Below, one piece after another: positions 1-12,284 of a DNA stretch of 26,962 bases. The notes beneath the pieces were generated by a model. It was not told the origin of the DNA. It saw only the letters and a list, made by a program, of their open reading frames with translations, and did not search any database. A program made the translations under genes and the position numbers. The stretch covers positions 1-26,962 of the forward strand of contig CAYWGS010000011.1 of assembly GCA_964457525.1 (NCBI GenBank), written 5' to 3'. Every line of letters begins with the position of its first letter. Positions within the stretch are counted from its first letter, which is position 1. Source of the stretch: an uncultured Erysipelotrichaceae bacterium (GTDB taxonomy: Bacteria > Bacillota_I > Bacilli_A > Erysipelotrichales > Erysipelotrichaceae).

Positions 1-53
1 ATTTACATAGATTCTTTTTTTATAGAAAAATAGTAAACGCTTTCAAAAAAATG

Positions 54-82
54 TTGACAAGAATATTAAGAATTGATATTGT
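54..82 (+). promoter_or_regulatory. sigma-A type promoter of the thiolase-to-TetR operon
   Basis: TTGACA at 54-59, a 17-nt spacer, then TATTGT at 77-82 preceded by TG at 74-75 (extended -10). The predicted TSS near 89 lies downstream of the ORF-track ATG at 83. Confidence 0.6.
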
Positions 83-139
83 ATGAATATAAAAGATGAA
101 TCACCTTTCATATTTGATTTATCAAAGGGGTATAAAGAA

Positions 140-1345
140 ATGAGTAAAGTGTATATTGTAAGTGCTAAGCGTTCAGCGACAGGTTCCTTTTTAGGGACTC
201 TTAAGAACATGTCTGCGGGCGATTTAGGTGCAGAGGTTTTAAAGTCAATCTTAAATGAAACTAAGATTGATCCAAAAGAAATTGATGAAGTGATTATGGG
301 TAATATCTTGCCAGCTGGACAAGGGCAAGGGGTCGCGCGTCAAGTTGCGATTAAAGCAGGAGTTCCTGTGGATGTACCAGCGTATAGCTTAAATATGGCT
401 TGCGGATCTGGTATGAAGGCAGTTATGAATGCTTATACAAGTATTAAAGCAGGTTTACATCATTGTGTTGTCGCGGGTGGTGTTGAGATCATGAGTGGTG
501 CTCCATACTTACTACCAAAAGAAGTTAGAAGTGGTTATAAGATGGGTCAATTAAATTTAACAGACCACATGATTTACGATGCATTAACCGATGCATTCGA
601 AGGAATCCACATGGGTGTTACAGCAGAGAACATTGCGGCTCGTTATAACATCTCTCGTTTAGAACAAGAACAATTTGCTTATAATTCTCAATTAAAAGCA
701 ATCAAAGCAGTCGATGGGGATGTATTCAAGAATGAAATCGTTCCAATCAAAGTTAAATTAGGAAAAGAAGAAGTCAGTTTTGAGAAGGATGAGTATCCAA
801 ATCGTAAGACAGACTTAGATAAATTAGCTGGATTAAAACCAGCATTCAAGAAAGATGGAGTTGTAACTGCCGGTACAGCTTCAGGCTTAAATGATGGAGC
901 AAGCATTACGTTGATTGCTTCAGAAGAATTTGTTAAAAAACATAACTTAACACCGATCGCAGAAGTTGTGGCGATTGGACAAGGTGGTGTAGAACCAAAT
1001 GTAATGGGTCTTGGCCCAACCCCTGCCATTCGCCACGCACTTAAGCATGGTAATCTATCCTTAAGTGATATCGATGTCTTCGAACTTAATGAAGCGTTCG
1101 CAGCTCAAAGCTTAGGGGTTGTACATGAACTAAGTGAAGAACACAAAGTATCAAAAGAAGAGATTATGAATAAGACAAATCCACATGGTGGTGCAATTGC
1201 TTTAGGTCATCCAGTAGGAGCAAGTGGTAATCGTATCTTGGTTACACTTGTACATGAATTGCATACATTAAACAAAAATATCGGTTGTGCTTCTCTCTGC
1301 ATTGGTGGAGGAATGGGCACAGCGATAATCGTTAAGAAAGCGTAA
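140..1345 (+). CDS. acetyl-CoA C-acetyltransferase (thiolase II), 401 aa
   Basis: Frame of ORF 83..1345. Start moved to ATG 140 (MSKVYIVSAKRS, a typical thiolase N-terminus) with SD AAAGGGG at 124-130. The ATG at 83 abuts the -10 box. Thiolase signatures are visible: NMACGSGMKAV (acyl-Cys), NPHGGAIALGHPVGASG (His) and GCASLCIGGGMG (C-terminal Cys). Confidence 0.95.
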   Translation: MSKVYIVSAKRSATGSFLGTLKNMSAGDLGAEVLKSILNETKIDPKEIDEVIMGNILPAGQGQGVARQVAIKAGVPVDVPAYSLNMACGSGMKAVMNAYTSIKAGLHHCVVAGGVEIMSGAPYLLPKEVRSGYKMGQLNLTDHMIYDALTDAFEGIHMGVTAENIAARYNISRLEQEQFAYNSQLKAIKAVDGDVFKNEIVPIKVKLGKEEVSFEKDEYPNRKTDLDKLAGLKPAFKKDGVVTAGTASGLNDGASITLIASEEFVKKHNLTPIAEVVAIGQGGVEPNVMGLGPTPAIRHALKHGNLSLSDIDVFELNEAFAAQSLGVVHELSEEHKVSKEEIMNKTNPHGGAIALGHPVGASGNRILVTLVHELHTLNKNIGCASLCIGGGMGTAIIVKKA

Positions 1346-1356
1346 GGGACAGAACA

Positions 1357-2076
1357 ATGAAATTAGATGGTAAAGTAGCAATTATTACAGGTGGTGCAAG
1401 AGGTTTAGGTCAAGCAATGGCAGAGGAATTTGCGAATGCTGGGGCTAAAGTTATTGCGGCTGATATGGGTGAATTAAGTTATTCTCATCCAAATGTAGAA
1501 GGTTACAAACTTAATGTGACGGATTCAGAAGCTTGTTTAAAATTCTTCAATGATGTCGTCGAAAAATACGGTAAAATTGATATTCTAGTTAATAATGCAG
1601 GAATTACTCGTGATGCATTAACACGCAAGATGACTGAAGAAATGTGGGACTTAGTTATTGATGTTAACCTTAAAGGTGTATTCAACTTAACTCGTCATGT
1701 GGGTCCTCATATGCAAGGTAATCAAACAGGATCCATTATTAACATCGCATCCATCGTTGGTGTGTTTGGAAATATTGGACAAGCAAACTATGCGGCTTCT
1801 AAAGCAGGTGTTATTGGTTTAACCAAGACTTGGGCTAAAGAATTTGCGATGAAGGGTGGCAATGTTCGTGTCAATGCGATTGCGCCTGGATATGTTATGA
1901 CCGATATCTTAAAGACTGTACCTCAAGACTTATTGGATAAATTCGCAGCAATGACGATGTTAGGTCGTTTAGGACAACCAGAAGAAATCGCTAAAGTTGC
2001 GTTATTCTTAGCAAGTGAAGATGCATCTTACATTACAGGCCAGGTTATCGAACCTAATGGAGGCATGAGACTCTAA
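1357..2076 (+). CDS. fabG: 3-oxoacyl-ACP / acetoacetyl-CoA reductase (classical SDR, FabG/PhaB-like), 239 aa
   Basis: TGGARGLG dinucleotide motif, NNAGITRD, catalytic YAASKAG (YxxxK) and PGYVMTD. SD AAGGGA lies 7 nt upstream. Confidence 0.9.
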   Translation: MKLDGKVAIITGGARGLGQAMAEEFANAGAKVIAADMGELSYSHPNVEGYKLNVTDSEACLKFFNDVVEKYGKIDILVNNAGITRDALTRKMTEEMWDLVIDVNLKGVFNLTRHVGPHMQGNQTGSIINIASIVGVFGNIGQANYAASKAGVIGLTKTWAKEFAMKGGNVRVNAIAPGYVMTDILKTVPQDLLDKFAAMTMLGRLGQPEEIAKVALFLASEDASYITGQVIEPNGGMRL

Positions 2077-2969
2077 TGAAACAATACGAAGTCAAGACTT
2101 TACTCCTAAGTAATGGTGAAACCATTGCTTACCGTGAATGTGGACATGGGGATAAGACAATTATCCTTGTTCATGGAAACATGAGTTCTTCTGTTCACTT
2201 TCAAACTACGATGGAAGCTTTAGAAAATGATTTTAAAGTATATGCCGTGGATATGCGTGGATTTGGGGATAGTTCTTATAACTCAGAACTAAATAGCTTA
2301 CATGACTTCTCTATTGATATTCAATTATGGATTAAAGCATTAGACCTAACGAACTTTACGATCTTAGGTTGGTCTACCGGTGGTGGTGTTGTGCTCGAAT
2401 TAGCAGCTGATATGCCACAACGTGTAAACAAAGTATTATTACTCGATTCTGTTGGTATTAAGGGTTATCCAATGTTTAAGAAAGATGAGAAGGGTCAGCC
2501 AATCTTAACTCAACTTATCACAACAAAAGAAGAAATAGCAGCAGATGCAGTTCAAGTATTACCAATTCTTGGAGCGTATGCGACACGTAATAAAGATTTA
2601 TTAAAGATTATTTGGAACGCGGTTATTTATAATCTTAAGCAACCAAGTGAAGAAGATTATGATCTTTACTTAGACGCAATGTTAAAACAACGTAATTTAG
2701 TCGATGTAGACTATAGTCTCGTACACTTCAATATGACATTAGATCACAATGGAATTAACTCTGGAAGTGGAAGAATACAACTCGTGAAAGCACCAGTTGT
2801 CATCATGCATGGTAAAGTTGATTACGTTGTACCATTCGCTTATGCAGAAGAAATGAAAACATACTTCAAGGATCAAGCAACACTTATTCCGTTTGAAAAT
2901 GTTGGACATTCTTGCATAACCGATAACTTCGATTTATTTATACAAACAGTGAAAGAAAATGTGGCTTAG
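2076..2969 (+). CDS. alpha/beta-fold serine hydrolase, 297 aa
   Basis: HGN oxyanion region (ILVHGNMSSS), nucleophile elbow GWSTGG, C-terminal VGHS histidine. The start overlaps the fabG-like stop by 1 nt (TAATG). Confidence 0.85.
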   Translation: MKQYEVKTLLLSNGETIAYRECGHGDKTIILVHGNMSSSVHFQTTMEALENDFKVYAVDMRGFGDSSYNSELNSLHDFSIDIQLWIKALDLTNFTILGWSTGGGVVLELAADMPQRVNKVLLLDSVGIKGYPMFKKDEKGQPILTQLITTKEEIAADAVQVLPILGAYATRNKDLLKIIWNAVIYNLKQPSEEDYDLYLDAMLKQRNLVDVDYSLVHFNMTLDHNGINSGSGRIQLVKAPVVIMHGKVDYVVPFAYAEEMKTYFKDQATLIPFENVGHSCITDNFDLFIQTVKENVA

Positions 2970-3998
2970 ATGGAAAAAGTAAATATTGGAATTATGGGGG
3001 TTGGTGTATATCTCCCGTCAGAGGTGATGACTGCGCGTGAAATCGCAGACGCAACCAATGGAGTTTGGAGTGAAACCGCTGTTATTGATAAACTTGGAAT
3101 TGTTCAAAAAACAGTGCCAGGTGCAAATGACGGAACCCAAGAAATGGGTGCTCTTGCGGCAATCGAAGCAGTTAAAGATGCGGGAATTGACCCTAGTGAA
3201 ATTGATGTCATTCTATGTTTTGGAGAAGAGTGGAAAGAGTATCCTCTAACAACTTCTGCACTATACATTCAAGATCGTGTTAAAGCCGTTAATGCTTGGG
3301 GTATCGATGTACAAAATCGTTGTTGCACATCGGTAACTGCACTTAAGATGGCGAAAGACATGATGATTGCGGATGATGAAATCAAGACTGTACTTGTCTG
3401 TGGTGGATACCGTAATAGTGATTTCGTAGACTACACTGATAAGAATATGTCAATGATGTATAACTTATCTGCTGGTGGTGGTGCACTTATCTTACGTAAA
3501 GGATTAAATAAGAACTTATTATTAGGATCACATATTATCTCTGATGGGTCTCTTGCTCGTACAGCTGGAGTTGAAATTGGTGGTACGGTTAATCCTTATA
3601 ATAAAGAAAATATCGAAACAGGCTTTAAATCCCTCCGCTTAATGGATGCGGAAAAGATGAAAAATCGTTTAAATGAAGTATCACAAGGGAATTGGTTGAA
3701 ATGTATCGATCGTGCTCTTGAGAAATCAGGTTTAGAAAGAAAAGATCTTGGTTATCTTGATATTCTACATATTAAACGTTCTGCTCACTTAGGTATGTTA
3801 AAGGATTTAGGTCTAAATGAAGATCAAAGTATTTATTTAGAAAATTATGGACATATGGGTCAAGTTGACCAAATTCTATCTTTATCCCTTGCGCTTAAAG
3901 AAGGTAAAGTTAAAGATGGAACAGTTATATGTATGTTAGCGGCAGGCATTGGGTATGTCTGGGCAGCTAATATTGTGAAATGGGGAGTGGCTCAGTGA
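2970..3998 (+). CDS. 3-oxoacyl-ACP synthase III (KAS III/FabH)-like condensing-enzyme family protein, 342 aa
   Basis: FabH-like N-terminus (IGIMGVGVYLPSEVMTAREI). By-eye alignment to E. coli FabH places DVQNRCCTSVTAL on the active-site Cys, ILHIKRS on HQAN and YGHMGQV on HGNTSAA. The start directly abuts the preceding stop. Confidence 0.8.
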   Translation: MEKVNIGIMGVGVYLPSEVMTAREIADATNGVWSETAVIDKLGIVQKTVPGANDGTQEMGALAAIEAVKDAGIDPSEIDVILCFGEEWKEYPLTTSALYIQDRVKAVNAWGIDVQNRCCTSVTALKMAKDMMIADDEIKTVLVCGGYRNSDFVDYTDKNMSMMYNLSAGGGALILRKGLNKNLLLGSHIISDGSLARTAGVEIGGTVNPYNKENIETGFKSLRLMDAEKMKNRLNEVSQGNWLKCIDRALEKSGLERKDLGYLDILHIKRSAHLGMLKDLGLNEDQSIYLENYGHMGQVDQILSLSLALKEGKVKDGTVICMLAAGIGYVWAANIVKWGVAQ

Positions 3999-4870
3999 GT
4001 ACCTTTATCCAAATCTTACTTAGAAGCTTAGAGTCTGGAAGTGTCTATGCACTTGCGGCTTTAGGGATCATCATTATCTATCGTACGTCTAATATCACTA
4101 ACTTCTCGCAAGGGGTTGTTGGGATGTTTAATACCTACGTAGTAACCTATTTGTTTATGAAAACGGGGGCACCTTTGTGGTTGTGTATCTTGGGTGGTGT
4201 TGTCAGTGCGATAGTAGTAGGATTAACCATCGACTTCTTAGTTATTCGTCATACTAAGAAAGTCGCTCCAGTAGCGAAGCAAATTATAACACTGGGTTTG
4301 ATTATGGTTATTATGGGGATTGCGCCAATCTTGTTTGGTGTCGATCCATTGAATCTTCCACGTTTAATTAACGAAGGGAATTTAACCATTCTCGGTGCAA
4401 ATATCTCATACAATGGTTTGTTTAACATTGTGTTTGGTATCGTGATTATGTTTATCTTATTTTATATCTTACAGAAGACGAAAATTGGTCTTGCGGTTCG
4501 TACAACTGCAAGTAATGAATTTACAGCTCGCTTAATGGGTGTTCCAACTAAAACAGTTACCATGGGTGCTTGGGCTGTTGCAGGGGTCTTAGGGGTTTTA
4601 GCAGGTGTTATGATTGCGCCTACGACAACGGTTACCTTGAACTTAATGGATGTCGTGCAAATTAATGCCTTAATCGCTTGTGTTCTAGGTGGTTTCCAAA
4701 CCTTCTATGGTCCGATTTTAGGGGCTTATATCATTGGTGTGAGTCGTAACTTATTGATTTATTATGTTTCAAGTGTATGGGGTGGACAAATCCTTTATAT
4801 CTTGATCCTAATCTTCTTGATTTTTAGACCATATGGTTTAATCGGTAAGAAGACTGTGAAGAAAGTGTAG
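3995..4870 (+). CDS. branched-chain amino acid (HAAT family) ABC transporter permease, LivH-like
   Basis: Polytopic hydrophobic protein with a LivH-type N-terminus (LLRSLESGSVYALAALGIIIIYRTS). I prefer GTG 3995 because GGGGAG lies 7 nt upstream and GTGA overlaps the KAS III-like stop. The ORF-track ATG at 3980 has no SD but cannot be excluded. Confidence 0.85.
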   Translation: MSTFIQILLRSLESGSVYALAALGIIIIYRTSNITNFSQGVVGMFNTYVVTYLFMKTGAPLWLCILGGVVSAIVVGLTIDFLVIRHTKKVAPVAKQIITLGLIMVIMGIAPILFGVDPLNLPRLINEGNLTILGANISYNGLFNIVFGIVIMFILFYILQKTKIGLAVRTTASNEFTARLMGVPTKTVTMGAWAVAGVLGVLAGVMIAPTTTVTLNLMDVVQINALIACVLGGFQTFYGPILGAYIIGVSRNLLIYYVSSVWGGQILYILILIFLIFRPYGLIGKKTVKKV

Positions 4871-4877
4871 GTTAAAT

Positions 4878-5924
4878 ATGAACAAGTTAAATATCGAAAC
4901 ACTTTCAAGCAAAATTAAAAAACTATCTAAAAATCCGTATTTACAGTTTATCCTCTTTGGATTAGTGCTAAGTACATTGCCGATCCTGGCCAGCCAATTT
5001 TCCTTTATTAAATCAGCGTATATCACAACCATCGGTGCTACTCTGATTTATGCCATTGCCGCTTTAGGCTTGAACATCCTCCTCGGTTGGTCAGGATTAA
5101 TTTCCCTAGGTACAGCTGGGTTTATGGGTCTTGCGAGTTATATCTCAGCGTATCTTACGGTTGACATGCAGCTTCCATTCGAAGTTGCGTTACTTGCAGC
5201 CATACTTGTACCAACCATTATTGGTGTACTTGTTGGATTGGTCTCACTCAAAATCGAGGGTCTCTACTTAGCAATTGCGACCTTGGCGGTTTCAGAAATC
5301 TTACGAAAGACCTTCGAAGAGTTTGAGCCATTAACCGGTGCGTTTAGTGGTAAAGCAGCGAAGTATCCAATGTTATTCAATAGTATTCAATTGGATCGAG
5401 CTTCAACTTATTATCTAATTGTATTTATCTTAGTGATTATCATGTTAATTACCTATAACTTAGTGAATGGCCAAATGGGACGTGCATTAAATGCAATGCG
5501 TGGATCAGAAGCTGCAGCTCAAGCAATGGGTGTTAACTTACTTAAATATCGTTTAGTCGCATTTGCACTTGCGACAATCTTCGCATCTGTTGCGGGTGTA
5601 CTTTATGTTCACTTCATTCGTTATTCGTATCCGTCCACTTGGACACTTAAATTATCTCTGGATTTCTTAGCGATGATTGTTATTGGTGGGGTTCGCTCCA
5701 TTTATGGAACAGTCTTAGGTGCATTCATTGTGTTTGCGGTTCCTGATTTGTTCTTGAAACAAATTCCTTATTTCAGTCAATTGTCTTATACCTTAAATGG
5801 TATTCTAATTATCCTTGTCATTATGTTCTATCCAAATGGGATTGTAATGATCTTTAGAGATATTAAGAATGTATTCTTAAAATTATTCAAGAAAGGAAAT
5901 GGAAATCATGTTAGCGGAAAATGA
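4878..5924 (+). CDS. HAAT-family ABC transporter permease, LivM-like, 348 aa
   Basis: Polytopic membrane protein with a LivM-type core (LNILLGWSGLISLGTAGFMGLASY). Confidence 0.88.
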   Translation: MNKLNIETLSSKIKKLSKNPYLQFILFGLVLSTLPILASQFSFIKSAYITTIGATLIYAIAALGLNILLGWSGLISLGTAGFMGLASYISAYLTVDMQLPFEVALLAAILVPTIIGVLVGLVSLKIEGLYLAIATLAVSEILRKTFEEFEPLTGAFSGKAAKYPMLFNSIQLDRASTYYLIVFILVIIMLITYNLVNGQMGRALNAMRGSEAAAQAMGVNLLKYRLVAFALATIFASVAGVLYVHFIRYSYPSTWTLKLSLDFLAMIVIGGVRSIYGTVLGAFIVFAVPDLFLKQIPYFSQLSYTLNGILIILVIMFYPNGIVMIFRDIKNVFLKLFKKGNGNHVSGK

Positions 5925-6714
5925 AGTTCTGAAGATTGAGAACTTATCCATTGCCTTCGGTGGTTTAAAAGCTGTTGATAACTTATCGTTTGAAATAAAG
6001 AAGAATGAAATCTTTGGATTAATAGGTCCGAATGGTGCAGGTAAAACAACGGTGTTTAACTGTATTACGCAGTTCTATAAACCCAATGATGGAAAAATCT
6101 TATTTAGACTAAAAGATGGATCAGAAACAAATCTTGTGGATCATAAAGTTCACGAGATTATCAAACTTGGTTTAGTTCGTACGTTCCAAAACGTTGAGCT
6201 AATTCGTGAATTAAGTATTCTCGATAATGTAATGATTGGAGCTCATATTGACTTCAAGGCAACGATTATTGAACAAGCACTCCGTTTACCTAGAGCACGT
6301 AAAGAAGAAAAACAACTTCGTTCAGAAGCGGAAGAAATTCTAAAACGTTTAGGTATTTGGGAACGTAAGGATATGTTGGTCTTTGGTCAACCGTATGGAA
6401 TTCTAAAGAAAGTAGAAATGGCTCGTACACTTATGTGTCGTCCATCACTTATTATCTTGGATGAACCTGCAGCTGGCTTAAATGATGTCGAAACACTTCA
6501 ATTAGCAGAGTTGATTCGTACGATTCGTGATGAATTTAATTGTTCAGTTCTACTCGTTGAACATGATATGCGTTTAGTTATGGATGTGTGTGATCGTATT
6601 TGTGCTATTTCGTTTGGTAAGTTCTTAGCGAAGGATACTGCAAAAGAAATCCAAAAGAATAAAGCAGTCCAAGAGGCTTATCTTGGTAGCAACGAGGAGA
6701 TTCATCATGTCTAA
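5908..6714 (+). CDS. HAAT-family ABC transporter ATP-binding protein, LivG-like
   Basis: Walker A GPNGAGKTT, Walker B LIILDEPAAGLN, LVEHDM switch. Start is either ATG 5908 (AGGAA 9 nt upstream) or ATG 5899 (ORF track). The gene overlaps the end of the LivM-like gene. Confidence 0.88.
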   Translation: MLAENEVLKIENLSIAFGGLKAVDNLSFEIKKNEIFGLIGPNGAGKTTVFNCITQFYKPNDGKILFRLKDGSETNLVDHKVHEIIKLGLVRTFQNVELIRELSILDNVMIGAHIDFKATIIEQALRLPRARKEEKQLRSEAEEILKRLGIWERKDMLVFGQPYGILKKVEMARTLMCRPSLIILDEPAAGLNDVETLQLAELIRTIRDEFNCSVLLVEHDMRLVMDVCDRICAISFGKFLAKDTAKEIQKNKAVQEAYLGSNEEIHHV

Positions 6715-7426
6715 TACAGCGTTATACATAAAAGGCTTAAAGGTACGTTATGGTGCGATTGAAGCGCTAAAAGGTATCGATATGGAAGTTAAAGAAGGGG
6801 ATGTTGTTGCGATTCTCGGTGCTAATGGTGCTGGTAAAACGACAACCTTACGTACGATTTCTGGGTTAATTGAGCCAGCAGAAGGAAGTATTCTATTCTA
6901 CAATCATGAGATTGGAAAATTAGAACCTGAAAAGATTGCGGCTTTGGGATTATCCCAATCTCCAGAAGGACGTCAAGTATTTAGAGATTTAACCGTTGAA
7001 GAGAACCTAAAAGTTGGGGCTTTCACGGTAAGAGACAAAAAGATTGTTAAGGAACAATTCGAAAAAGTATATCGTTACTTTCCAGTGTTAAAAGAACGTA
7101 AGAATCAAATTGCCTCTACCTTATCCGGTGGGGAACAACAGATGCTTGCGATTGGTAGAGCACTTATGAGTAATCCTAAGATTTTACTTCTAGATGAACC
7201 ATCCTTAGGTTTAGCACCACTCATTATTCGCGATATTATGAACATTGTCTTAGAGATTAAGAAATCTGGTACTACAGTCATTATTGTTGAACAGAATGCG
7301 GCTCAAACCTTAAAGATTGCGGATTATGCATACGTGTTGGAACTTGGTGAAATTAGTACCCATGGTCCTGCACAAGAATTATTAAATGATCCTAAGCTCA
7401 TTGAAGCGTATCTCGGATCGCATTAA
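6707..7426 (+). CDS. HAAT-family ABC transporter ATP-binding protein, LivF-like, 239 aa
   Basis: Walker A GANGAGKTT, ABC signature LSGGEQQMLAIGRAL, Walker B LLLDEPSLGLAP. ATG 6707 has SD GAGGAG about 7 nt upstream and overlaps the LivG-like stop by 8 nt. The ORF-track start at 6683 is a non-ATG extension. Confidence 0.9.
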   Translation: MSNTALYIKGLKVRYGAIEALKGIDMEVKEGDVVAILGANGAGKTTTLRTISGLIEPAEGSILFYNHEIGKLEPEKIAALGLSQSPEGRQVFRDLTVEENLKVGAFTVRDKKIVKEQFEKVYRYFPVLKERKNQIASTLSGGEQQMLAIGRALMSNPKILLLDEPSLGLAPLIIRDIMNIVLEIKKSGTTVIIVEQNAAQTLKIADYAYVLELGEISTHGPAQELLNDPKLIEAYLGSH

Positions 7427-7428
7427 TT

Positions 7429-7437
7429 TGGTATAAA
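7429..7437 (+). promoter_or_regulatory. possible internal extended -10 promoter ahead of the binding-protein gene
   Basis: TGgTATAAA at 7429-7437, with no convincing -35. A weak 6-bp hairpin (AATGCT/AGCATT, 7436-7450) overlaps it. AAGGAGG at 7462-7468 is one of the strongest SDs in the operon. Confidence 0.3.
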
Positions 7438-7473
7438 TGCTGAAAGCATTATATATAAAAAAAGGAGGAATAC

Positions 7474-8703
7474 ATGATGTTTAAGAAGTTGTTTATGATT
7501 CTTACTGTTATGGCATTAGCTACAACTTTAGTAGCTTGTGGTCCAAAAGAAGAAGTCGTTGAAGAAGTTGCTGCACAAGGGATTACAGACACTGAAGTTC
7601 TAATCGCTAACTGTGCTGCTACATCCGGTGCATTTGCACCTGTTGGTGTACCGTTTATCGCAGGTATTGAAGCTTATTTAAAGACGATTAATGATGCAGG
7701 TGGTATCGATGGTCGTACGATTAAATTCTTACACCAAGATGATGAATTTGACCCTGCTAAAGGTAAGGCTTGTTTAGCTTCCATGGTAGAAGATGAAAAA
7801 GTATTCGCAATCGTTGGTCACTTCGGTACTCCAGTTGTTGGGGCTACTCTTGAAGATCTAAAAGACTACGGTATTCCAGCTGTTTACTTCGCAACTGGTA
7901 TCGGTCAACTTTACAATGATAAAGCTGAAGGTCGCGATCGTGGTATTATGCCTGTTCAACCAATCTATGTCACAGAAGGACAAATCATGGTTGCACGTGC
8001 TGTTGGGGATTTCGGTGCTAAATCAATCGGTATCATCTATACAAATGATGACGCTGGTAAAGACATCTTAGCTGGTGCTCAAAAGAAAGCTGCTGAATTA
8101 GGCGTTACTTTAGTTGAAGCTCAAGTTGCTCCTGGTACAGATGATGCATCTGCTGCTGTTACTACAATTAAAGAAGCTAACGTTGATTTCATTATTGGTG
8201 GTGCTATCCAAGCTACTATCCCTACAATTATCAAAGAATTAGCTGCTCAAGGTAATGACAAAGACGTTATCACAACTTATGTTAACGTTGCGCCAGTTAT
8301 CGCTGAAGCTGTTATGAATGAAATTGCTGGTAAATTTGATGTTTACGGTAATGGTTGGGTTTCTTTTGAAAGTGAAATTCACCAAAAAGCTTTAGCTGAC
8401 TATACTGCAGCAATCGCTCCTGAATACGCTGCTAATGCTTACGCTATGACTGGTTGGATTGCAGCAACATTCTTCGTTGAAGGTTTAAAACGTTTAGAAG
8501 GTGATAAAGTTATCACTTGGGAAAACTATTTAGACGCAATGGAATCTGCTCCTATTCAAAACCCATTCGGTGGTTTAATTGATTACAGTAACGGTTTACG
8601 TGCTGGTACTCAAGAAATGAACCTTTCCAAGATTAATCCTGAAGCTCCTACTAAGTGGGAAGTTGTTGACGGATTAAGATCAATGGATGATTTATTAAAT
8701 TAA
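7474..8703 (+). CDS. ABC transporter substrate-binding lipoprotein (type I periplasmic-binding fold, LivK/Peripla_BP_6-like), 409 aa
   Basis: Signal peptide with lipobox LVAC (Cys22). Typical family core GITDTEVLIANCAATSGAFAPVG...INDAGGIDGRTIKFLHQDDEFDP. Strong SD. Confidence 0.9.
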   Translation: MMFKKLFMILTVMALATTLVACGPKEEVVEEVAAQGITDTEVLIANCAATSGAFAPVGVPFIAGIEAYLKTINDAGGIDGRTIKFLHQDDEFDPAKGKACLASMVEDEKVFAIVGHFGTPVVGATLEDLKDYGIPAVYFATGIGQLYNDKAEGRDRGIMPVQPIYVTEGQIMVARAVGDFGAKSIGIIYTNDDAGKDILAGAQKKAAELGVTLVEAQVAPGTDDASAAVTTIKEANVDFIIGGAIQATIPTIIKELAAQGNDKDVITTYVNVAPVIAEAVMNEIAGKFDVYGNGWVSFESEIHQKALADYTAAIAPEYAANAYAMTGWIAATFFVEGLKRLEGDKVITWENYLDAMESAPIQNPFGGLIDYSNGLRAGTQEMNLSKINPEAPTKWEVVDGLRSMDDLLN

Positions 8704-8725
8704 TAAGATACAATAAATATGATCG

Positions 8726-8751
8726 GTTGCGGAAGGTAAACCTTCCGCAAC
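8726..8751 (+). other. GC-rich intercistronic hairpin (partial terminator or mRNA 3-prime stabiliser)
   Basis: GTTGCGGAAGG-TAAA-CCTTCCGCAAC, an 11-bp perfect stem. It is followed by ACCCTTTATGG, which is not a proper U-tract, so it is not a canonical intrinsic terminator. Confidence 0.5.
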
Positions 8752-8772
8752 ACCCTTTATGGAGAAACAATA

Positions 8773-10077
8773 ATGGATATTTCAATGAAAAAGATTACTG
8801 CAAGTGAAGCAGTCAAAAAAGTTAAAAGTGGAATGATGATTGTTACAGGTTTAGGTTGTGCTGAAGGACGTGATTTCTTAAGTCAACTTCATACAATTGC
8901 AGATGAGGTAAGTGGGGTTACAGTTACAAATTGTTTGCCGATGTCTGATCCTGAGTTCATTAAGAAAGAATATAAAAATTCGTTCTATGTGGATGGTTGG
9001 TTTTATTCCCCTGCTTTGCGTAAAGCACATCAAAATGGAAATATATCCTTTATTCCGAATCATTTACATCTAGCTGGAACAAAGCGTTTAGCGCATGTTC
9101 ACACAGATATATATGTCGGTGCTTGTTCAATGCCAGACAAACATGGATATGTTTCTTTATCCTTAAGTAATACGTATGAAAAACGTGTCATTGAAGAAGC
9201 AGATTTAGTTATATTAGAAATTAACCCTAATATGCCATATACCTATGGAGATGTAGAACTTCATCTAAGTGAAGTTGACTATGTCATCGAATCCAATTAC
9301 TTACCTGCTGAATTGCCTGATACAGAACCAAATGAGAAAGATATTGCGATTGGAAATAGTATCGCAAGTCAAATCAATGATGGAGATACCATCCAACTCG
9401 GTATTGGAGGTATTCCAAATGCAGTCGCATCCGCATTAAAGAATAAAAAAGACTTAGGTGTACATACGGAAATGCTAACAACAGGTCTTATGAAGTTAGC
9501 GAAACTCGGTGTTGTGACAAATAAACGTAAAACTTTACACAAAGGTAAAATGGTTTGTACCTTTGCGATGGGGACGAAAGAACTCTATGAATACATTGAT
9601 CACAACCCAGGTGTTGCGGTTCTTGATGGAGCTTATACCAATGATCCTCATATTATCGGATTAAACGATAATATGGTCTCTATTAACACAACCTTAGAAA
9701 TTGACCTAACTGGACAATGTTGTTCAGAATCCATTGGTTCTACGCAGTTTAGTGGATCTGGTGGACAAGTTGATACCGCTGTTGGGGCACAAAATGCGAA
9801 GAATGGCCGTTCATTTATCGCTCTATATTCAACGGCAATGGTTAAAAATCCTGTAACAGGAGAGCGTGAAGAGATTTCTAAGATTGTTCCTCAATTAAAA
9901 CAAGGAGCGGTTGTTACTTTAAGTCGTAATGATGTGAACTATGTTGTTACGGAATATGGAATGGTAAACCTAAAAGGTACGAACGTTCGTGAACGTGTTA
10001 AACTACTCATTTCCATTGCTCATCCTAAGTTTAGAGATGAACTTCTTGAACAAGCTAAGGCGTTAGGTATTATCTAA
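8773..10077 (+). CDS. acetyl-CoA hydrolase/transferase family protein (4-hydroxybutyrate / butyryl-CoA:acetate CoA-transferase-like), 434 aa
   Basis: Size and motifs fit the family: QLGIGGIPNAV, VHTEMLTTG (candidate catalytic Glu region) and SGSGGQVD. SD GGAGA lies 7 nt upstream. Confidence 0.85.
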   Translation: MDISMKKITASEAVKKVKSGMMIVTGLGCAEGRDFLSQLHTIADEVSGVTVTNCLPMSDPEFIKKEYKNSFYVDGWFYSPALRKAHQNGNISFIPNHLHLAGTKRLAHVHTDIYVGACSMPDKHGYVSLSLSNTYEKRVIEEADLVILEINPNMPYTYGDVELHLSEVDYVIESNYLPAELPDTEPNEKDIAIGNSIASQINDGDTIQLGIGGIPNAVASALKNKKDLGVHTEMLTTGLMKLAKLGVVTNKRKTLHKGKMVCTFAMGTKELYEYIDHNPGVAVLDGAYTNDPHIIGLNDNMVSINTTLEIDLTGQCCSESIGSTQFSGSGGQVDTAVGAQNAKNGRSFIALYSTAMVKNPVTGEREEISKIVPQLKQGAVVTLSRNDVNYVVTEYGMVNLKGTNVRERVKLLISIAHPKFRDELLEQAKALGII

Positions 10078-10892
10078 TGGCAACCCTAGAATTTCAGGAT
10101 TATTCGATTTACTATGAAGTTTATGGTAAAGGGAAACCACTTTTAATCCTAAATGGTATTATGATGTCAACCGCTAGTTGGCAAATGTTTATTGCTAGTT
10201 TTAGTCAAAAGAATCAATTGATACTTGTTGATATGTTAGATCAAGGTCAATCTTCTAAGTTAGAAGGAATGGAATATACACAAGATTTACAAGTTGAAGT
10301 TGTTAAGACGGTTATTGAAAAACTTAATCTTAAAGATGTGGCATTGTTTGGAATTTCATATGGAGGAGAAGTTGCGATTAAGTTTGCGATTAAATATCCT
10401 CATTTAGTTGAGAGATGTTTGCTCTTTAATACAACAAGTTATACCAACCATTGGCTTCAAGAGATTGGGAATGCATGGAATCTTGCAAGTACCAATGCGG
10501 AACAATACTATGGCACAACCATTCCTGTTATTTACTCTTCTTACTTCTATGAATCGAAGATTAAATGGATGAATGATCGTAAGAAGATTTTATTAAATGT
10601 ATTTTCGAATCCAGTCTTTCAACGTGCCATGGTACGTTTAACCAATAGTGCTAATTCTCTTGATGAAAGAGCAAATCTACATAAGATTAAATGCCCATGT
10701 TTAATTGTTGGTTGTGATGAGGATGCGATAACACCGCTATCACACCAAAAATATTTACACGAGAATATTAAGAACTCGAGTTTAGTGATTGTTCCAGGCT
10801 CAGGACATGCGTCTATGTATGAGAAACCAATGTTATTTAGTTCACTTGTTTTAGGATTTGTACATTCGTTGATTATACCGGATGTGGTATAA
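10077..10892 (+). CDS. alpha/beta-fold serine hydrolase, 271 aa
   Basis: Nucleophile elbow GISYGG, acid region GCDEDAITP, histidine GSGHAS. TAATG overlap with the CoA-transferase stop. Confidence 0.85.
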   Translation: MATLEFQDYSIYYEVYGKGKPLLILNGIMMSTASWQMFIASFSQKNQLILVDMLDQGQSSKLEGMEYTQDLQVEVVKTVIEKLNLKDVALFGISYGGEVAIKFAIKYPHLVERCLLFNTTSYTNHWLQEIGNAWNLASTNAEQYYGTTIPVIYSSYFYESKIKWMNDRKKILLNVFSNPVFQRAMVRLTNSANSLDERANLHKIKCPCLIVGCDEDAITPLSHQKYLHENIKNSSLVIVPGSGHASMYEKPMLFSSLVLGFVHSLIIPDVV

Positions 10893-10915
10893 TTGAAACG
10901 ATTTGAGGGAAAATT

Positions 10916-11506
10916 GTGAACACTCTTGTAAACCAACCAAAAACGAAACGTGGTCAAGTAACACTCGATAGAATATGTGTTGCGGCTGAGCAATTATTTT
11001 TTAAGAAGGGCTATCATGGAACATCGATCAATGATATCACTTATAAAGCAAAGGTTGCGCCTGGTACATTTTATATATACTTTACGGATAAGTTAAGTTT
11101 ATATAAGTATCTACTTATTTCATATAGTCACCAAATTCGTATGAATATTGCGAAGGATGTGAAGGATTGTAAGACGCGTAAAGAAGTTGAACGACTTGGT
11201 CTTAAGAGTTTCTTAGTCTTTATTAAAAACAATCGACATGTGTACAATATTATTTGGGAATCATTGTACATTGATAAAAAACTGTTTATAGAGTATTATA
11301 CGGATTTCGCAGCGAACTACGTTAAACACATCAATGAGGCACAAGATAGAGGTGAAATGAAGAAACATGATCCTGAAGTTGTGGCTTATATCTTAATGGG
11401 TATATCAAACTTTATTGGTTTAAACTGGATTATGTTTAAAGAAACTGAAGAGTTTGATGTTGTTGTGGATAAAGTTATTGCGGCATTAGATGAAGGATTA
11501 TTTTAA
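10916..11506 (+). CDS. TetR/AcrR-family transcriptional regulator, 196 aa
   Basis: GTG start with SD GAGGGA 5 nt upstream. N-terminal HTH (AAEQLFFKKGYHGTSINDITYKAKVAPGTFYIYF). It is the last gene of the operon. Confidence 0.9.
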   Translation: MNTLVNQPKTKRGQVTLDRICVAAEQLFFKKGYHGTSINDITYKAKVAPGTFYIYFTDKLSLYKYLLISYSHQIRMNIAKDVKDCKTRKEVERLGLKSFLVFIKNNRHVYNIIWESLYIDKKLFIEYYTDFAANYVKHINEAQDRGEMKKHDPEVVAYILMGISNFIGLNWIMFKETEEFDVVVDKVIAALDEGLF

Positions 11507-11530
11507 AGGTGTTTAACACCTTTTTATTTT
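11505..11530 (+). terminator. intrinsic terminator of the 11-gene operon
   Basis: AAAGGTGT-TTA-ACACCTTT stem followed by the T-rich tract TTATTTTGTTTTT. It starts inside the TetR stop codon. Confidence 0.75.
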
Positions 11531-11560
11531 GTTTTTATGCTTTTGTATTATAATAGAGAT

Positions 11561-12130: not shown

Positions 12131-12168
12131 TCTTTCTTGTTAAAAAACTCTATTTTATGCCAAAATTC

Positions 12169-12197
12169 TTGCAATATTGAACTTTTTTCAGTATTAT
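12169..12197 (+). promoter_or_regulatory. sigma-A promoter of the tRNA gene
   Basis: TTGCAA at 12169-12174, 17-nt spacer, TATTAT at 12192-12197. The tRNA 5-prime end is 14 nt downstream. Confidence 0.6.
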
Positions 12198-12210
12198 AGA
12201 AAGGCATAAC

Positions 12211-12284
12211 GCCATCATAGTTCAATGGTAAAATAGAGCAATGGTAATGCTCAGCTCCGAGTTCGATTCTCGGTGATGGCACCA
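12211..12284 (+). tRNA. tRNA-Thr (anticodon GGU), CCA encoded
   Basis: Folded by hand. Acceptor stem GCCATCA/TGATGGC, anticodon stem GAGCA/TGCTC with loop ATGGTAA (GGT), T-arm CCGAG-TTCGATT-CTCGG, discriminator A plus CCA. The D-stem is weak (3 bp including G-U). Confidence 0.85.

What the first reader, a model, noticed from the sequence alone, without database searches (positions are those of the whole stretch)
54..11530. TetR-capped 11-gene operon joining acetoacetyl-CoA-type enzymes, two serine hydrolases, a KAS III-like enzyme and a CoA-transferase to a Liv/HAAT-family ABC importer
**Seen in the sequence**
- One promoter (54-82) and one strong terminator (11505-11530) bracket eleven co-directional genes.
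- The junctions are tight and suggest translational coupling: TAATG at 2076 and 10077, zero gap at 2969/2970, GTGA at 3995-3998, and an 8-nt overlap at 6707-6714.
- The importer genes sit in the middle of the enzyme genes. They are not a separate unit.

**Established knowledge**
- Thiolase, a PhaB/FabG-type reductase and a 4-hydroxybutyrate-type CoA-transferase together suffice to interconvert a short 3-hydroxy or 3-keto acid with acetyl-CoA.
- HAAT-family binding proteins are not restricted to Leu/Ile/Val. Characterised members bind other carboxylates and amides.
- TetR regulators of acyl-CoA pathways are often acyl-CoA responsive (for example B. subtilis FadR).

**Inference**
- The locus could be an uptake-plus-catabolism module for a 3-hydroxy/3-keto short-chain acid, its esters or its oligomers, such as ketone bodies or 3-hydroxybutyrate oligomers.
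- Alternatively it could be a biosynthetic module whose product I cannot name.
- The KAS III-like gene and the two hydrolases are not explained by any textbook pathway I know. The combination looks undescribed.
Basis: partly seen in the sequence, partly recalled or inferred. Interest (0 to 1): 0.7.

Follow-up and report, generated by a model that had tools for sequence, protein, structure and literature searches.

The report
Conserved 3-hydroxybutyrate-ester uptake and breakdown operon
This is a real twelve-gene operon, conserved across many Firmicutes and wall-less relatives, that most likely imports 3-hydroxybutyrate or small bioplastic (PHB) fragments and burns them to acetyl-CoA, built around an uncharacterised FabH-like enzyme whose role is unknown.

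Summary

**Anatomy**
- Twelve co-directional genes (11 plus TetR) run from a promoter at 54-82 to a modest terminator at 11505-11523, with the junctions as described.
- The window comes from an Erysipelotrichaceae-like bacterium.

**Conservation**
- A relative of the KAS III-like gene turned up at 533 places in a species-level genome collection.
- Of 42 loci with full flanks, 31 carry all twelve gene families and 35 carry the ten-gene core. They span Erysipelotrichaceae, Acholeplasma, Izemoplasmatales, Christensenellaceae and Oscillospiraceae.
- Variants with other regulators occur in Clostridium, Neobacillus and Paenibacillus.

**Gene identities**
- Hydrolase 1 belongs to the Bacillus thuringiensis PhaZ family of PHB depolymerases (PDB 8YNV, 6e-87).
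- The binding protein lies far outside the Leu/Ile/Val binders.
- The reductase is the NAD type.

**Regulation**
- Orthologous leaders conserve a cre-like box and a palindrome that co-occurs only with this TetR type.

**Open question**
- The KAS III-like protein is the most conserved enzyme. It carries Cys-His-His-Asp instead of FabH's Cys-His-Asn, which resembles acyl-transferring KAS III homologues. Its role is unknown.

**Literature:** ten searches found no description of this cluster.

The parts
32..45 (+). cre-like palindrome AGTAAACGCTTTCA just upstream of the -35 hexamer (candidate CcpA site)
   Evidence: Nearly invariant in 10 orthologous leaders. A cre-type pattern occurs upstream of the thiolase gene in 19 of 66 loci, against a background of 0.025 per kb. 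The assignment to CcpA rests on the consensus recalled from memory and was not tested.
54..82 (+). sigma-70-type promoter: TTGACA, 17-nt spacer, TG-extended TATTGT
   Evidence: Top-scoring site, 10 of 12 matches. The -35 hexamer is invariant, and -10 positions T77, A78 and T82 are invariant, in 10 related loci.
97..110 (+). palindromic operator candidate TGAATCACCTTTCA, downstream of the -10 hexamer (candidate TetR site)
   Evidence: Conserved block. The motif TGAAYCA(N3-4)TTYA occurs upstream of the thiolase gene in 28 of 66 loci. It is found in loci with a co-directional, window-type TetR (or with no tetR detected on the DNA held) and in none with a divergent TetR. Background is 0.017 per kb.
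140..1345 (+). thiolase (acetyl-CoA C-acyltransferase); the ORF could start at 83
   Evidence: TIGR01930 scores 454 bits (cut-off 240.55). Thiolase_N and Thiolase_C domains are present. The Cys, His and Cys motifs NMACGSG, GHPVGASG and CIGGG are present.
1357..2076 (+). short-chain dehydrogenase of the FabG/PhaB type, predicted NAD(H)-dependent 3-hydroxyacyl-CoA / 3-oxoacyl-CoA oxidoreductase
   Evidence: adh_short_C2 at 1.4e-62. The FabG and acetoacetyl-CoA reductase models both score just below cut-off (275 against 296; 242 against 302). The Ser-Tyr-Lys residues are invariant, and Asp36 at the end of beta-2 is conserved in 70 of 72 orthologues.
2076..2969 (+). cytoplasmic alpha/beta-hydrolase of the B. 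thuringiensis PhaZ family (short-chain PHA depolymerase family)
   Evidence: NF050089 scores 380.6 bits (cut-off 300). PDB 8YNV matches at 5.8e-87 over residues 7-293, with the GWSxGG nucleophile elbow aligned. 8YNV is from B. thuringiensis (PMC12278694). No signal peptide.
2970..3998 (+). KAS III-fold protein of family NF005308/PRK06840 with Cys118, His267, His295 and Asp300
   Evidence: NF005308 scores 468.8 bits (cut-off 315). The AlphaFold model has pLDDT 94.5, and FabH structures match at TM 0.84. The FabH Asn aligns with His295. Residue conservation among 306 homologues: C118 in 297, H267 in 277, H295 in 298, D300 in 300.
3980..4870 (+). HAAT-family ABC permease (LivH-like)
   Evidence: BPD_transp_2 at 1.2e-34.
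4878..5924 (+). HAAT-family ABC permease (LivM-like)
   Evidence: BPD_transp_2 at 9.6e-41.
5908..6714 (+). ABC ATPase (LivG-like)
   Evidence: ABC_tran plus BCA_ABC_TP_C domains; the LivG model scores 259 bits. The start at 5908 follows the gene calls in identical contigs.
6707..7426 (+). ABC ATPase (LivF-like)
   Evidence: ABC_tran domain; the LivF model scores 236 bits.
7474..8703 (+). lipoprotein substrate-binding protein (Peripla_BP_6), ligand unknown, not a Leu/Ile/Val binder
   Evidence: Peripla_BP_6 at 2.6e-51. The LivJ/K model scores 44.8 bits against a cut-off of 477. The best solved relatives are 4n03 and 3lop, only at 1e-12 to 1e-14. The lipobox LVAC is present.
8726..8751 (+). strong GC-rich intercistronic hairpin after the binding-protein gene (partial terminator or RNA-stability element)
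   Evidence: dG -21.1 kcal/mol, z -5.2, no clear T-run. An equivalent hairpin of -17 to -30 kcal/mol, with a different sequence, is present in 49 of 50 related loci.
8773..10077 (+). CoA-transferase of the 4-hydroxybutyrate / butyryl-CoA:acetate family
   Evidence: AcetylCoA_hydro plus AcetylCoA_hyd_C domains. PDB 3eh7 matches at 1.1e-100 and 3gk7 at 3e-95. TIGR03948 scores 305 bits against a cut-off of 675.
10077..10892 (+). second cytoplasmic alpha/beta-hydrolase (esterase), related to the metagenomic protein MGS-M2
   Evidence: Abhydrolase_1 at 5e-20. PDB 4q3l (MGS-M2) matches at 1.5e-70. The GISYGG nucleophile elbow is present and there is no signal peptide.
10916..11506 (+). TetR-family regulator (GTG start)
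   Evidence: TetR_N at 3.7e-12. Weak matches to FasR and Bacillus FadR models.
11505..11535 (+). intrinsic terminator: 8-bp stem, 3-nt loop, T-run
   Evidence: dG -7.8 kcal/mol, z -2.5.

Best explanation
**What it is**
A substrate-inducible catabolic operon. It takes up a short-chain (R)-3-hydroxyalkanoate and converts it to acetyl-CoA at the CoA-ester level. The most likely substrates are 3-hydroxybutyrate (3HB) and its soluble ester oligomers released from PHB.

**Proposed steps**
1. *Uptake.* The lipoprotein binding protein and the LivHMGF-type ABC system import the substrate. Shown: the family and the lipobox. Inferred: the ligand.
2. *Ester cleavage.* Two cytoplasmic serine esterases cleave ester bonds. 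One belongs to the B. thuringiensis PhaZ family. Shown: family membership. Inferred: that oligomers are the substrate.
3. *Activation.* The 4-hydroxybutyrate-type CoA-transferase makes 3HB-CoA from acetyl-CoA (inferred).
4. *Oxidation.* The NAD-type dehydrogenase oxidises 3HB-CoA to acetoacetyl-CoA (inferred).
5. *Cleavage.* The thiolase splits acetoacetyl-CoA into two acetyl-CoA (inferred).
6. *KAS III-fold enzyme.* It carries Cys118, His267, His295 and Asp300 and is the most conserved protein of the set. It is an acyl-S-enzyme catalyst rather than a FabH. Its role is unknown. My best guess is acyl transfer between 3HB esters and CoA.

**Regulation (inferred)**
- TetR represses at the palindrome at 97-110 until a pathway CoA-ester accumulates.
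- The cre-like box ties expression to carbon-catabolite control.
- The hairpin after the binding-protein gene sets a higher level of the upstream genes, through the binding-protein gene, than of the genes after it.
For: **Gene identities**
- assign all twelve genes to families.

**Hydrolase 1 and the PhaZ family**
- It scores 380.6 bits on NF050089 (cut-off 300), and PDB 8YNV matches at 5.8e-87.
- Family members sit in the equivalent cluster in Acholeplasma, Izemoplasmatales relatives, Clostridium and Neobacillus, scoring 286-444 bits.

**Conserved linkage**
- A relative of the KAS III-like gene is encoded at 533 places in the species-representative genome collection.
- All 12 families occur together in 31 of 42 fully flanked loci, and the core 10 in 35 of 42. 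The housekeeping neighbour maf is linked in only 8 of 42.
- The same enzyme-plus-importer set recurs under unrelated regulators:
  - MalT/BTAD-type in Neobacillus and Paenibacillus, where a CoA ligase replaces the transferase.
  - A sigma-54 activator in Clostridium.

**Direction and substrate class**
- Binding-protein-dependent ABC systems are importers (established knowledge).
- The binding protein is far from the Leu/Ile/Val binders.
- The dehydrogenase has a conserved Asp36, which marks the NAD(H) type.
- The thiolase, CoA-transferase and both esterases retain catalytic motifs, and the esterases lack signal peptides.

**Regulation**
- The cre-like box, promoter and operator are conserved. 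The operator occurs only in loci with a co-directional, window-type TetR or with no tetR detected, and in none with a divergent TetR.
Against: - No ligand, activity or transcript was measured. The substrate is inferred from one characterised homologue.
- That homologue, B. thuringiensis PhaZ, acts on the cell's own PHB granules. Its gene sits alone, outside any such cluster.
- A plain 3HB pathway needs neither the KAS III-fold enzyme nor two esterases. Yet the KAS III-fold protein is the best-conserved member (69-82% identity). The true substrate may therefore be something else.
- The cluster also occurs in human and ruminant gut bacteria, where PHB fragments are not an obvious nutrient.
- The dehydrogenase scores below the cut-offs of both the FabG and the acetoacetyl-CoA reductase models.
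- NAD(H) specificity fits a fermentative reductive direction as well as an oxidative one.
Confidence: 0.55

Rival explanations
1. Same architecture, different substrate. The module imports and degrades another small 3-hydroxy or 3-oxo acid ester or amide, and the PhaZ-family esterase acts on that compound rather than on 3HB oligomers. Candidates include acyl-carnitine or carnitine, 3-hydroxyacyl or 3-oxoacyl conjugates of amino acids or homoserine lactone, lactones, or oligomers of other hydroxy acids.
For: - The binding-protein ligand is unknown, and HAAT-family proteins mostly bind amino acids or amides.
- Hydrolase 2 and the KAS III-fold enzyme are not needed for 3HB itself.
- The cluster occurs in gut bacteria.
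- In Bacilli the CoA-activating enzyme is a FadD-like ligase, whose weaker matches include the carnitine-CoA ligase model.
Against: - The only experimentally characterised relative of any cluster-specific enzyme is a PHB depolymerase.
- The CoA-transferase belongs to the C4 hydroxy-acid / butyrate family.
- The thiolase is closest to acetoacetyl-CoA thiolases.
- No amidase, lactonase of a known type, or betaine-handling gene is in the cluster.
Confidence: 0.2
2. A self-contained storage or turnover cycle for PHB or oligo-3HB without a canonical PhaC. The steps would be:
1. The thiolase and the reductase make 3HB-CoA.
2. The KAS III-fold Cys-His-Asp enzyme polymerises or oligomerises it by O-acyl transfer.
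3. The PhaZ-family enzyme and hydrolase 2 mobilise the product.
4. The CoA-transferase re-activates the released 3HB.
For: - Every enzyme except the transporter maps onto a step of the PHB cycle.
- KAS III homologues with a Cys-His-Asp triad, such as CerJ and ChlB3, transfer acyl groups onto a hydroxyl group or a carrier-protein thiol rather than condensing them. CerJ forms an ester on a sugar hydroxyl (PMC9573744).
- C118, H295 and D300 are conserved.
- No PhaC_N domain was found in any ORF scanned in the window.
Against: - The importer is embedded in the enzyme genes and conserved with them, which this model does not explain.
- No phasin or PhaR is in the window or in the neighbourhoods read.
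- To my knowledge the carrier lineages are not known to store PHB.
- The dehydrogenase is the NAD type rather than the NADPH type usual for PhaB.
- Catabolite and repressor control suggest a nutrient-use operon.
Confidence: 0.07
3. A branched-chain amino-acid importer fused by chance or convenience to acyl-CoA enzymes. The KAS III-like protein would be a true condensing enzyme that primes fatty-acid or polyketide synthesis from short acyl-CoAs.
For: - The Liv-type components give their best named matches to LivG, LivF, LivH and LivM.
- The fold is closest to FabH.
- His267 plus His295 resemble the Cys-His-His set of elongating ketosynthases, so condensation cannot be excluded.
Against: - The binding protein fails the LivJ/K model by a wide margin.
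- No aminotransferase, keto-acid dehydrogenase, ACP, dehydratase or enoyl reductase is in the cluster.
- The defining FabH Asn is absent.
- Linkage to two esterases and a CoA-transferase across orders argues against a chance fusion.
Confidence: 0.08
4. Not one operon. The genes before and after the hairpin at 8726-8751, or other subsets, are independent transcription units that merely lie side by side.
For: - A strong conserved hairpin follows the binding-protein gene.
- There are 47-nt and 69-nt gaps on either side of that gene.
- In some lineages the gene blocks are rearranged, for example L057, L060 and L081.
Against: - In the window the hairpin lacks a clear T-run.
- No conserved promoter was seen in the gaps.
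- Most junctions overlap or touch.
- The blocks stay within one cluster even when they are reordered.
Confidence: 0.1

Closest known systems
PHB mobilisation and 3-hydroxybutyrate catabolism (PhaZ, oligomer hydrolase, thiolase PhaA, reductase PhaB; the anaerobic CoA-transferase route described for Ilyobacter delafieldii, cited from memory)
   Same: - A PhaZ-family esterase, a second esterase, a thiolase and a PhaB/FabG-type oxidoreductase.
- Activation of 3HB by CoA transfer, followed by oxidation at the CoA-ester level.
   Different: - No PhaC, phasin or PhaR.
- The genes are welded to a binding-protein-dependent importer and to a KAS III-fold enzyme.
- Many carriers are lineages not known to store PHB.
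- The dehydrogenase is the NAD type.
- The characterised B. thuringiensis phaZ gene itself lies outside any such cluster.
E. coli ato operon (atoDAEB) for acetoacetate and short-chain acid use (from memory)
   Same: One operon combines a transporter, a CoA-transferase and a thiolase that feed a C4 keto or hydroxy acid into acetyl-CoA.
   Different: - The CoA-transferase is of a different family (AtoDA is two-subunit, class I).
- AtoE is a permease, not an ABC system.
- There are no esterases, no dehydrogenase and no KAS III-fold gene.
- The ato operon is controlled by AtoSC, not by TetR.
KAS III-like acyltransferases CerJ and ChlB3, and the priming enzyme DpsC
   Same: - The KAS III fold.
- The nucleophile sits at the FabH Cys position.
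- His replaces the FabH Asn, and an Asp lies five residues later. Compare CerJ C116/H295/D300 and ChlB3 C113/H296/D301 (PMC9573744) with C118/H295/D300 here.
   Different: - Those enzymes sit in antibiotic biosynthetic clusters and use ACP or sugar acceptors.
- Sequence similarity is weak: E about 1e-7 for the single sequence and 1e-22 to 1e-26 for the profile. FabH is the closer match by both sequence and fold.
- This family keeps the FabH-type His267, which ChlB3 lacks (Phe266), as DpsC does (His266).
- I did not inspect a residue-level alignment to CerJ, ChlB3 or DpsC.
HAAT-family (Liv/Urt-type) ABC importers for non-amino-acid carboxylates, e.g. Rhodopseudomonas palustris aromatic-acid and fatty or dicarboxylic-acid systems next to beta-oxidation genes (from memory; PDB 4evq/4evs)
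   Same: - Two BPD_transp_2 permeases, LivG-like and LivF-like ATPases and a Peripla_BP_6 binding protein.
- The importer is encoded with CoA-pathway enzymes.
   Different: - The binding protein here is only remotely related to any solved member. The best are 3lop and 4n03, at 1e-20 to 1e-22 even with a profile.
- Its ligand is unknown.

Membership tests
B. thuringiensis-type intracellular short-chain PHA depolymerase (NF050089) | Full-length match to the family model above NCBI's cut-off | tested here: met
   380.6 bits against a cut-off of 300, covering residues 11-295 of 297.
B. thuringiensis-type intracellular short-chain PHA depolymerase (NF050089) | Serine nucleophile in a G-W-S-x-G elbow, with downstream Asp and His aligned to the solved enzyme | tested here: met
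   GWSTGG aligns with GWSMGG of 8YNV. The HGKVDYVVP and GHS segments align with QGDRDYVVP and GHS.
B. thuringiensis-type intracellular short-chain PHA depolymerase (NF050089) | Hydrolyses native PHB granules of the host cell, which therefore makes PHB and has PhaC | not testable with these tools
   No PhaC_N domain was found in the window ORFs scanned. The rest of the genome could not be read. The B. thuringiensis gene lies in a different context.
FabH (KAS III, beta-ketoacyl-ACP synthase III) | KAS III fold and the ACP_syn_III N- and C-terminal domains | tested here: met
   PF08545 and PF08541 are both present. The model has pLDDT 94.5, and Foldseek matches FabH structures at TM 0.84.
FabH (KAS III, beta-ketoacyl-ACP synthase III) | Cys-His-Asn catalytic triad | tested here: not met
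   The Cys and the His are kept (C118, H267). The Asn position is His295 in 298 of 306 family members. The FabH models TIGR00747 and NF006829 score 108 and 116 bits against cut-offs of 292 and 249.
CerJ/ChlB3-type KAS III-like acyltransferases | Cys nucleophile, His at the FabH-Asn position, and Asp five residues later | tested here: inconclusive
   C118, H295 and D300 are conserved in 297, 298 and 300 of 306 members. Their numbering and spacing match the published triads. Equivalence rests on the FabH alignment; no direct alignment to CerJ or ChlB3 was inspected. The extra His267 is DpsC-like.
CerJ/ChlB3-type KAS III-like acyltransferases | Transfers an acyl group to a hydroxyl or carrier-protein thiol instead of condensing | not testable with these tools
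   An enzyme assay is needed.
HAAT-family binding-protein-dependent ABC importer | Two BPD_transp_2 permeases, two ATPases (one with the BCA_ABC_TP_C tail) and a Peripla_BP_6 binding protein with an export or lipid-anchor signal | tested here: met
   One search shows the domains. The lipobox LVAC is at residues 19-22.
Leu/Ile/Val-binding proteins (LivJ/LivK clade) | Match to the LivJ/K family model, or close similarity to the solved proteins | tested here: not met
   NF011933 scores 44.8 bits against a cut-off of 477. LivJ and LivK structures match at 1e-6 to 6e-8.
4-hydroxybutyrate / butyryl-CoA:acetate CoA-transferase family | AcetylCoA_hydro plus AcetylCoA_hyd_C architecture and close similarity to solved 4HB CoA-transferases | tested here: met
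   One search shows the domains. PDB 3eh7 matches at 1.1e-100 and 3gk7 at 3e-95.
Butyryl-CoA:acetate CoA-transferase equivalog (TIGR03948) | Score above the equivalog cut-off | tested here: not met
   305 bits against 675.
Thiolase II (acetoacetyl-CoA thiolase type) | Family model above cut-off, with the catalytic Cys, His and Cys | tested here: met
   TIGR01930 scores 454 bits against 240.55. The motifs are present. The specific PhaA and BktB equivalogs are not reached (356 against 740; 362 against 725).
TetR-family repressor with an operator in its own operon's promoter | N-terminal TetR helix-turn-helix, and a palindrome at the promoter that co-varies with the regulator | tested here: met
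   TetR_N at 3.7e-12. The palindrome at 97-110 is conserved. It is found only in loci with a co-directional, window-type TetR or with no tetR detected, and in none with a divergent TetR. Binding itself was not tested.

The most novel reading that the evidence does not exclude
The KAS III-fold protein is a new kind of 3-hydroxybutyryl transferase. It would use its Cys-His-Asp site to move 3HB units between ester bonds and CoA.

- In the catabolic direction it would cleave imported 3HB oligomers with CoA instead of water, giving 3HB-CoA directly. That saves the activation step, which a fermenter pays for with the thioester of one acetyl-CoA and a Bacillus pays for with ATP.
- It would be a thiolase-fold counterpart of the thiolytic PHB depolymerase PhaZ1 of Ralstonia and, run in reverse, of PHA synthase.
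- It would also mean that the 'intracellular PHB depolymerase' family is mainly part of a scavenging system in bacteria that store no PHB.
Probability: 0.2. Interest if true: 0.8.

Novelty: new variant of a known kind. Interest (0 to 1): 0.6.

Why it matters
- **Carbon turnover.** PHB is one of the most abundant microbial storage polymers and a commercial bioplastic. How strict anaerobes and wall-less bacteria use its breakdown products is poorly known. This operon is a concrete, widely distributed candidate for that step. It occurs in digesters, sediments, groundwater and animal guts, and cultured carriers are available for testing.
- **Annotation.** It shows that the B. thuringiensis-type 'intracellular PHB depolymerase' family is usually encoded with an importer, in organisms not known to make PHB. 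Automatic annotation of these genes may therefore be misleading.
- **An uncharacterised enzyme family.** The cluster centres on a highly conserved KAS III-fold family (NF005308/PRK06840) whose catalytic residues are those of acyl-transferases. Its chemistry could be new for primary metabolism.

Tried and rejected
**Searches and predictions that failed**
The narrower alignment A3 worked. It biases the survey towards relatives with at least about 69% identity.
- Structure prediction of the binding protein:
  - The single-sequence model had pLDDT 41 and was discarded.
  - So there was no fold comparison and no inspection of the binding pocket.
- Profile searches of the PDB align LivJ and LivK only over the N-terminal half. 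The residues that bind the amino-acid ligand could not be compared.
- The original PhaZ papers (PMC1636284, PMC2725475) are not held. Product specificity and gene context had to come from elsewhere.
- No paper mentions MGS-M2.

**Uninformative or negative results**
- Foldseek on the KAS III-fold model does not separate FabH from the CerJ/DpsC type. No CerJ, ChlB3 or DpsC structure is in the top 50, and all listed hits have TM about 0.78-0.87.
- I expected B. thuringiensis phaZ to sit in a similar cluster. It does not.
- Rfam found no riboswitch or leader RNA in 1-13100, only a tRNA outside the operon.

**Considered and rejected**
- HMG-CoA synthase identity for the KAS III-fold protein: there is only an N-terminal match, at 1e-16.
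- A butyrate-fermentation operon: there is no Hbd-type dehydrogenase, crotonase or Bcd/Etf in the cluster.

Full report
**1. What is in the sequence**

The window has about 36% G+C. Positions 83-11506 hold twelve co-directional ORFs. Family scans identify them as follows.

| Coordinates | Gene product | Main evidence |
|---|---|---|
| 140-1345 | thiolase | TIGR01930, 454 bits |
| 1357-2076 | FabG/PhaB-type short-chain dehydrogenase | |
| 2076-2969 | alpha/beta-hydrolase (hydrolase 1) | NF050089, 380.6 bits (cut-off 300) |
| 2970-3998 | KAS III-fold protein | NF005308/PRK06840, 469 bits |
| 3980-4870 | LivH-like permease | BPD_transp_2 |
| 4878-5924 | LivM-like permease | BPD_transp_2 |
| 5908-6714 | LivG-like ATPase | ABC_tran plus BCA_ABC_TP_C |
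| 6707-7426 | LivF-like ATPase | ABC_tran |
| 7474-8703 | Peripla_BP_6 binding protein | lipoprotein signal LVAC |
| 8773-10077 | CoA-transferase | acetyl-CoA hydrolase/transferase fold |
| 10077-10892 | second alpha/beta-hydrolase (hydrolase 2) | Abhydrolase_1 |
| 10916-11506 | TetR regulator | TetR_N |

- The thiolase probably starts at 140 rather than 83.
- livH may start at 3980 rather than at the GTG at 3995.
- Downstream lie maf, a tRNA-Thr and housekeeping cell-wall and c-di-AMP genes.

**2. Control elements**

- *Promoter.* The promoter-like site at 54-82 is the best in 13 kb. The scan as a whole is not enriched over shuffles.
- *Conservation of the leader.* In ten orthologous leaders the following are conserved:
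  - the -35 hexamer, and -10 positions T77, A78 and T82;
  - a cre-like palindrome just upstream (32-45, AGTAAACGCTTTCA);
  - a palindrome just downstream of the -10 hexamer (97-110, TGAATCACCTTTCA).
- *Operator and TetR co-occur.*
  - The downstream motif lies upstream of the thiolase gene in 28 of 66 loci.
  - It occurs in loci that carry a co-directional, window-type TetR, including Christensenellaceae-type clusters, and in some loci where no tetR was detected on the DNA held.
  - It occurs in none of the loci that carry a divergent, differently related TetR.
  - The background is 0.017 per kb.
  - This co-occurrence makes it the likely TetR operator.
- *Terminator.* The terminator at 11505-11523 is real but modest (dG -7.8, z -2.5).
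- *Internal hairpin.*
  - A much stronger hairpin follows the binding-protein gene (8726-8751, dG -21, z -5.2).
  - A GC-rich hairpin of a different sequence occupies the same spot in 49 of 50 related loci.
  - That pattern fits a partial terminator or an RNA-stability element, which would raise expression of the upstream genes, through the binding-protein gene, relative to the genes after it.
- *RNA families.* Rfam finds nothing in the leader or the gaps.

**3. Origin and conservation**

- Identical proteins occur on wastewater and other metagenome contigs. Close homologues are named Erysipelotrichaceae or Erysipelothrix.
- A scan of one genome per species found 533 places that encode a relative of the KAS III-fold protein. 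The best 80 were compared with the twelve window proteins.

Among 42 loci with at least 9 kb on each side:

| Measure | Result |
|---|---|
| Loci with all twelve families | 31 of 42 |
| Loci with the ten-gene core | 35 of 42 |
| Loci with the housekeeping neighbour maf | 8 of 42 |
| Median identity, dehydrogenase | 76% |
| Median identity, KAS III-fold protein | 72% |
| Median identity, CoA-transferase | 67% |
| Median identity, thiolase | 64% |
| Median identity, hydrolase 2 | 54% |
| Median identity, PhaZ-family hydrolase | 44% |
| Median identity, permeases and binding protein | 39-43% |

- Carriers include Erysipelotrichaceae, Acholeplasma granularum, other Acholeplasmataceae, Izemoplasmatales, Christensenellaceae, Oscillospiraceae and human and ruminant gut MAGs.
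- More distant versions, with about 50% identity in the KAS III-fold protein, occur in Neobacillus niacini and Paenibacillus alginolyticus. There the order is regulator, binding protein, LivGFHM, a small 59-61 aa ORF, KAS III-fold, PhaZ family (444 bits), dehydrogenase and a FadD-like CoA ligase, with a thiolase nearby.
- In Clostridium sp. MSJ-11 the cluster has a sigma-54 activator.
- The same enzyme-plus-importer set therefore recurs under three unrelated kinds of regulator. That is strong evidence for one functional module.

**4. The individual proteins**

- *Hydrolase 1.*
  - It matches the solved B. thuringiensis PHB depolymerase (8YNV) at 5.8e-87 over its full length, with the catalytic elbow aligned.
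  - The equivalent hydrolases in Acholeplasma, Mycoplasmatota, Clostridium and gut lineages score 286-410 bits on the same model.
  - The B. thuringiensis gene itself sits alone, among MarR and MFS genes.
- *Hydrolase 2.* It matches the metagenomic protein MGS-M2 (4q3l, 1.5e-70). No paper on that protein was found in the library searched.
- *Both hydrolases* lack signal peptides, so they act inside the cell.
- *CoA-transferase.* It matches 4-hydroxybutyrate CoA-transferases at 1e-100.
- *Dehydrogenase.* Asp36 at the end of beta-2 is conserved in 70 of 72 orthologues. This is the classical mark of NAD(H) rather than NADP(H) use (established SDR rule).
- *Binding protein.* It fails the LivJ/K model (44.8 against 477 bits) and is only remotely related to any solved HAAT protein.

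**5. The KAS III-fold protein**

- The model is confident (pLDDT 94.5), and FabH structures are the best matches (TM 0.84).
- In the FabH alignment, Cys118 and His267 correspond to the FabH Cys and His. The FabH Asn is replaced by His295.
- Residue conservation across 306 homologues:

| Residue | Conserved in |
|---|---|
| Cys118 | 297 of 306 |
| His267 | 277 of 306 |
| His295 | 298 of 306 |
| Asp300 | 300 of 306 |

- Among the most divergent representatives, a few have Ser at position 118.
- The published triads of KAS III-like acyltransferases are CerJ C116/H295/D300 and ChlB3 C113/H296/D301. In these, the His-Asp pair activates the Cys for acyl transfer rather than for Claisen condensation. 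DpsC has Ser, two His and an Asp (PMC9573744).
- The match in position and spacing is striking, but I did not see a direct residue alignment to those proteins. The retained His267 also means condensation cannot be excluded.
- The family is therefore not a FabH. It works through an acyl-enzyme on Cys118, and its reaction is unknown.

**6. Most likely function**

- Thiolase, dehydrogenase and CoA-transferase suffice to convert a 3-hydroxy C4-C5 acid to acetyl-CoA.
- The importer and the repressor and catabolite-control signature point to use of an external substrate.
- The PhaZ-family esterase points to 3-hydroxybutyrate esters.
- I therefore favour uptake and catabolism of 3HB and its soluble oligomers (confidence 0.55 for the general scheme, less for the exact substrate).
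- The KAS III-fold enzyme may cleave the ester bonds with CoA instead of water. There is a precedent in the thiolytic PHB depolymerase PhaZ1 of Ralstonia eutropha (cited in PMC3430594). This step is pure inference.
- Points against this reading:
  - No measurement of any kind was made.
  - The characterised homologue works on internal PHB granules.
  - The cluster occurs in gut bacteria.
  - The best-conserved enzyme is not needed by the simple scheme.

**7. Novelty**

- Ten full-text searches found no description of this cluster or of the KAS III-fold family.
- The library lacks most subscription journals, so absence there is weak evidence.
- I rate it a new variant of a known kind: PHB and 3HB catabolism, with a new importer linkage and a new core enzyme.

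Noticed in passing
window 8726-8751; the same position in L008-L086: A GC-rich hairpin lies directly after the binding-protein gene (dG -21 kcal/mol here). A hairpin with a different sequence is present in 49 of 50 related clusters. It is probably a partial terminator or decay barrier that raises expression of the upstream genes, through the binding-protein gene, relative to the downstream genes.
   Followed up: partly
window 32-45: A conserved cre-like palindrome (AGTAAACGCTTTCA; TGTAAACGGTTACA in some relatives) lies just upstream of the -35 hexamer. At that position CcpA sites can activate rather than repress (from memory). Binding was not tested.
   Followed up: partly
L089 (B. thuringiensis), 10001-10918: The experimentally characterised B. 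thuringiensis phaZ gene stands alone, next to MarR and MFS genes. Its family members in many other Firmicutes and Mollicutes-like bacteria sit inside the importer / KAS III / CoA-enzyme cluster. The family's annotation as 'intracellular PHA depolymerase' may not fit most members.
   Followed up: partly
L087 9804-9983; L088 9806-9991: In Neobacillus and Paenibacillus a small 59-61 aa ORF with no family match lies between the permease gene and the KAS III-fold gene. The window cluster has no counterpart.
   Followed up: no
window 12211-12284, 12295-12323 and 12328-13008 (-): A tRNA-Thr(GGT) is followed by a good terminator. Next comes a 226-aa minus-strand ORF with no Pfam or NCBIfam match. Other contigs that carry the identical KAS III-fold gene have a called gene of 99 aa (L002) or 187 aa (L003, L004) at the corresponding spot, so the region beside the tRNA is variable.
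   Followed up: no
window 16621-18042: The CdaA (diadenylate cyclase) ORF is 473 aa. Only residues 9-246 match CdaA models. The C-terminal 220 or so residues match no Pfam or NCBIfam family. CdaR (YbbR) and GlmM follow as usual.
   Followed up: partly
window 20740-26910: This stretch holds an OmpR/PhoB-type response regulator, a histidine kinase, a third alpha/beta-hydrolase (weak EstV-lipase match), a 532-aa MurF-like ligase with an unmatched N-terminal 180 residues, a NUDIX protein and a 398-aa D-Ala-D-Ala ligase. It looks like housekeeping cell-wall synthesis with an attached two-component system.
   Followed up: no
L052, L037, L041, L082: Some Acholeplasmataceae and Mycoplasmatota clusters carry two PhaZ-family genes. 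One resembles the window's (65-68% identity) and lies between the dehydrogenase and KAS genes. The other is a divergent copy (about 40%) at the end of the cluster. In L052 both score above the NF050089 cut-off.
   Followed up: partly
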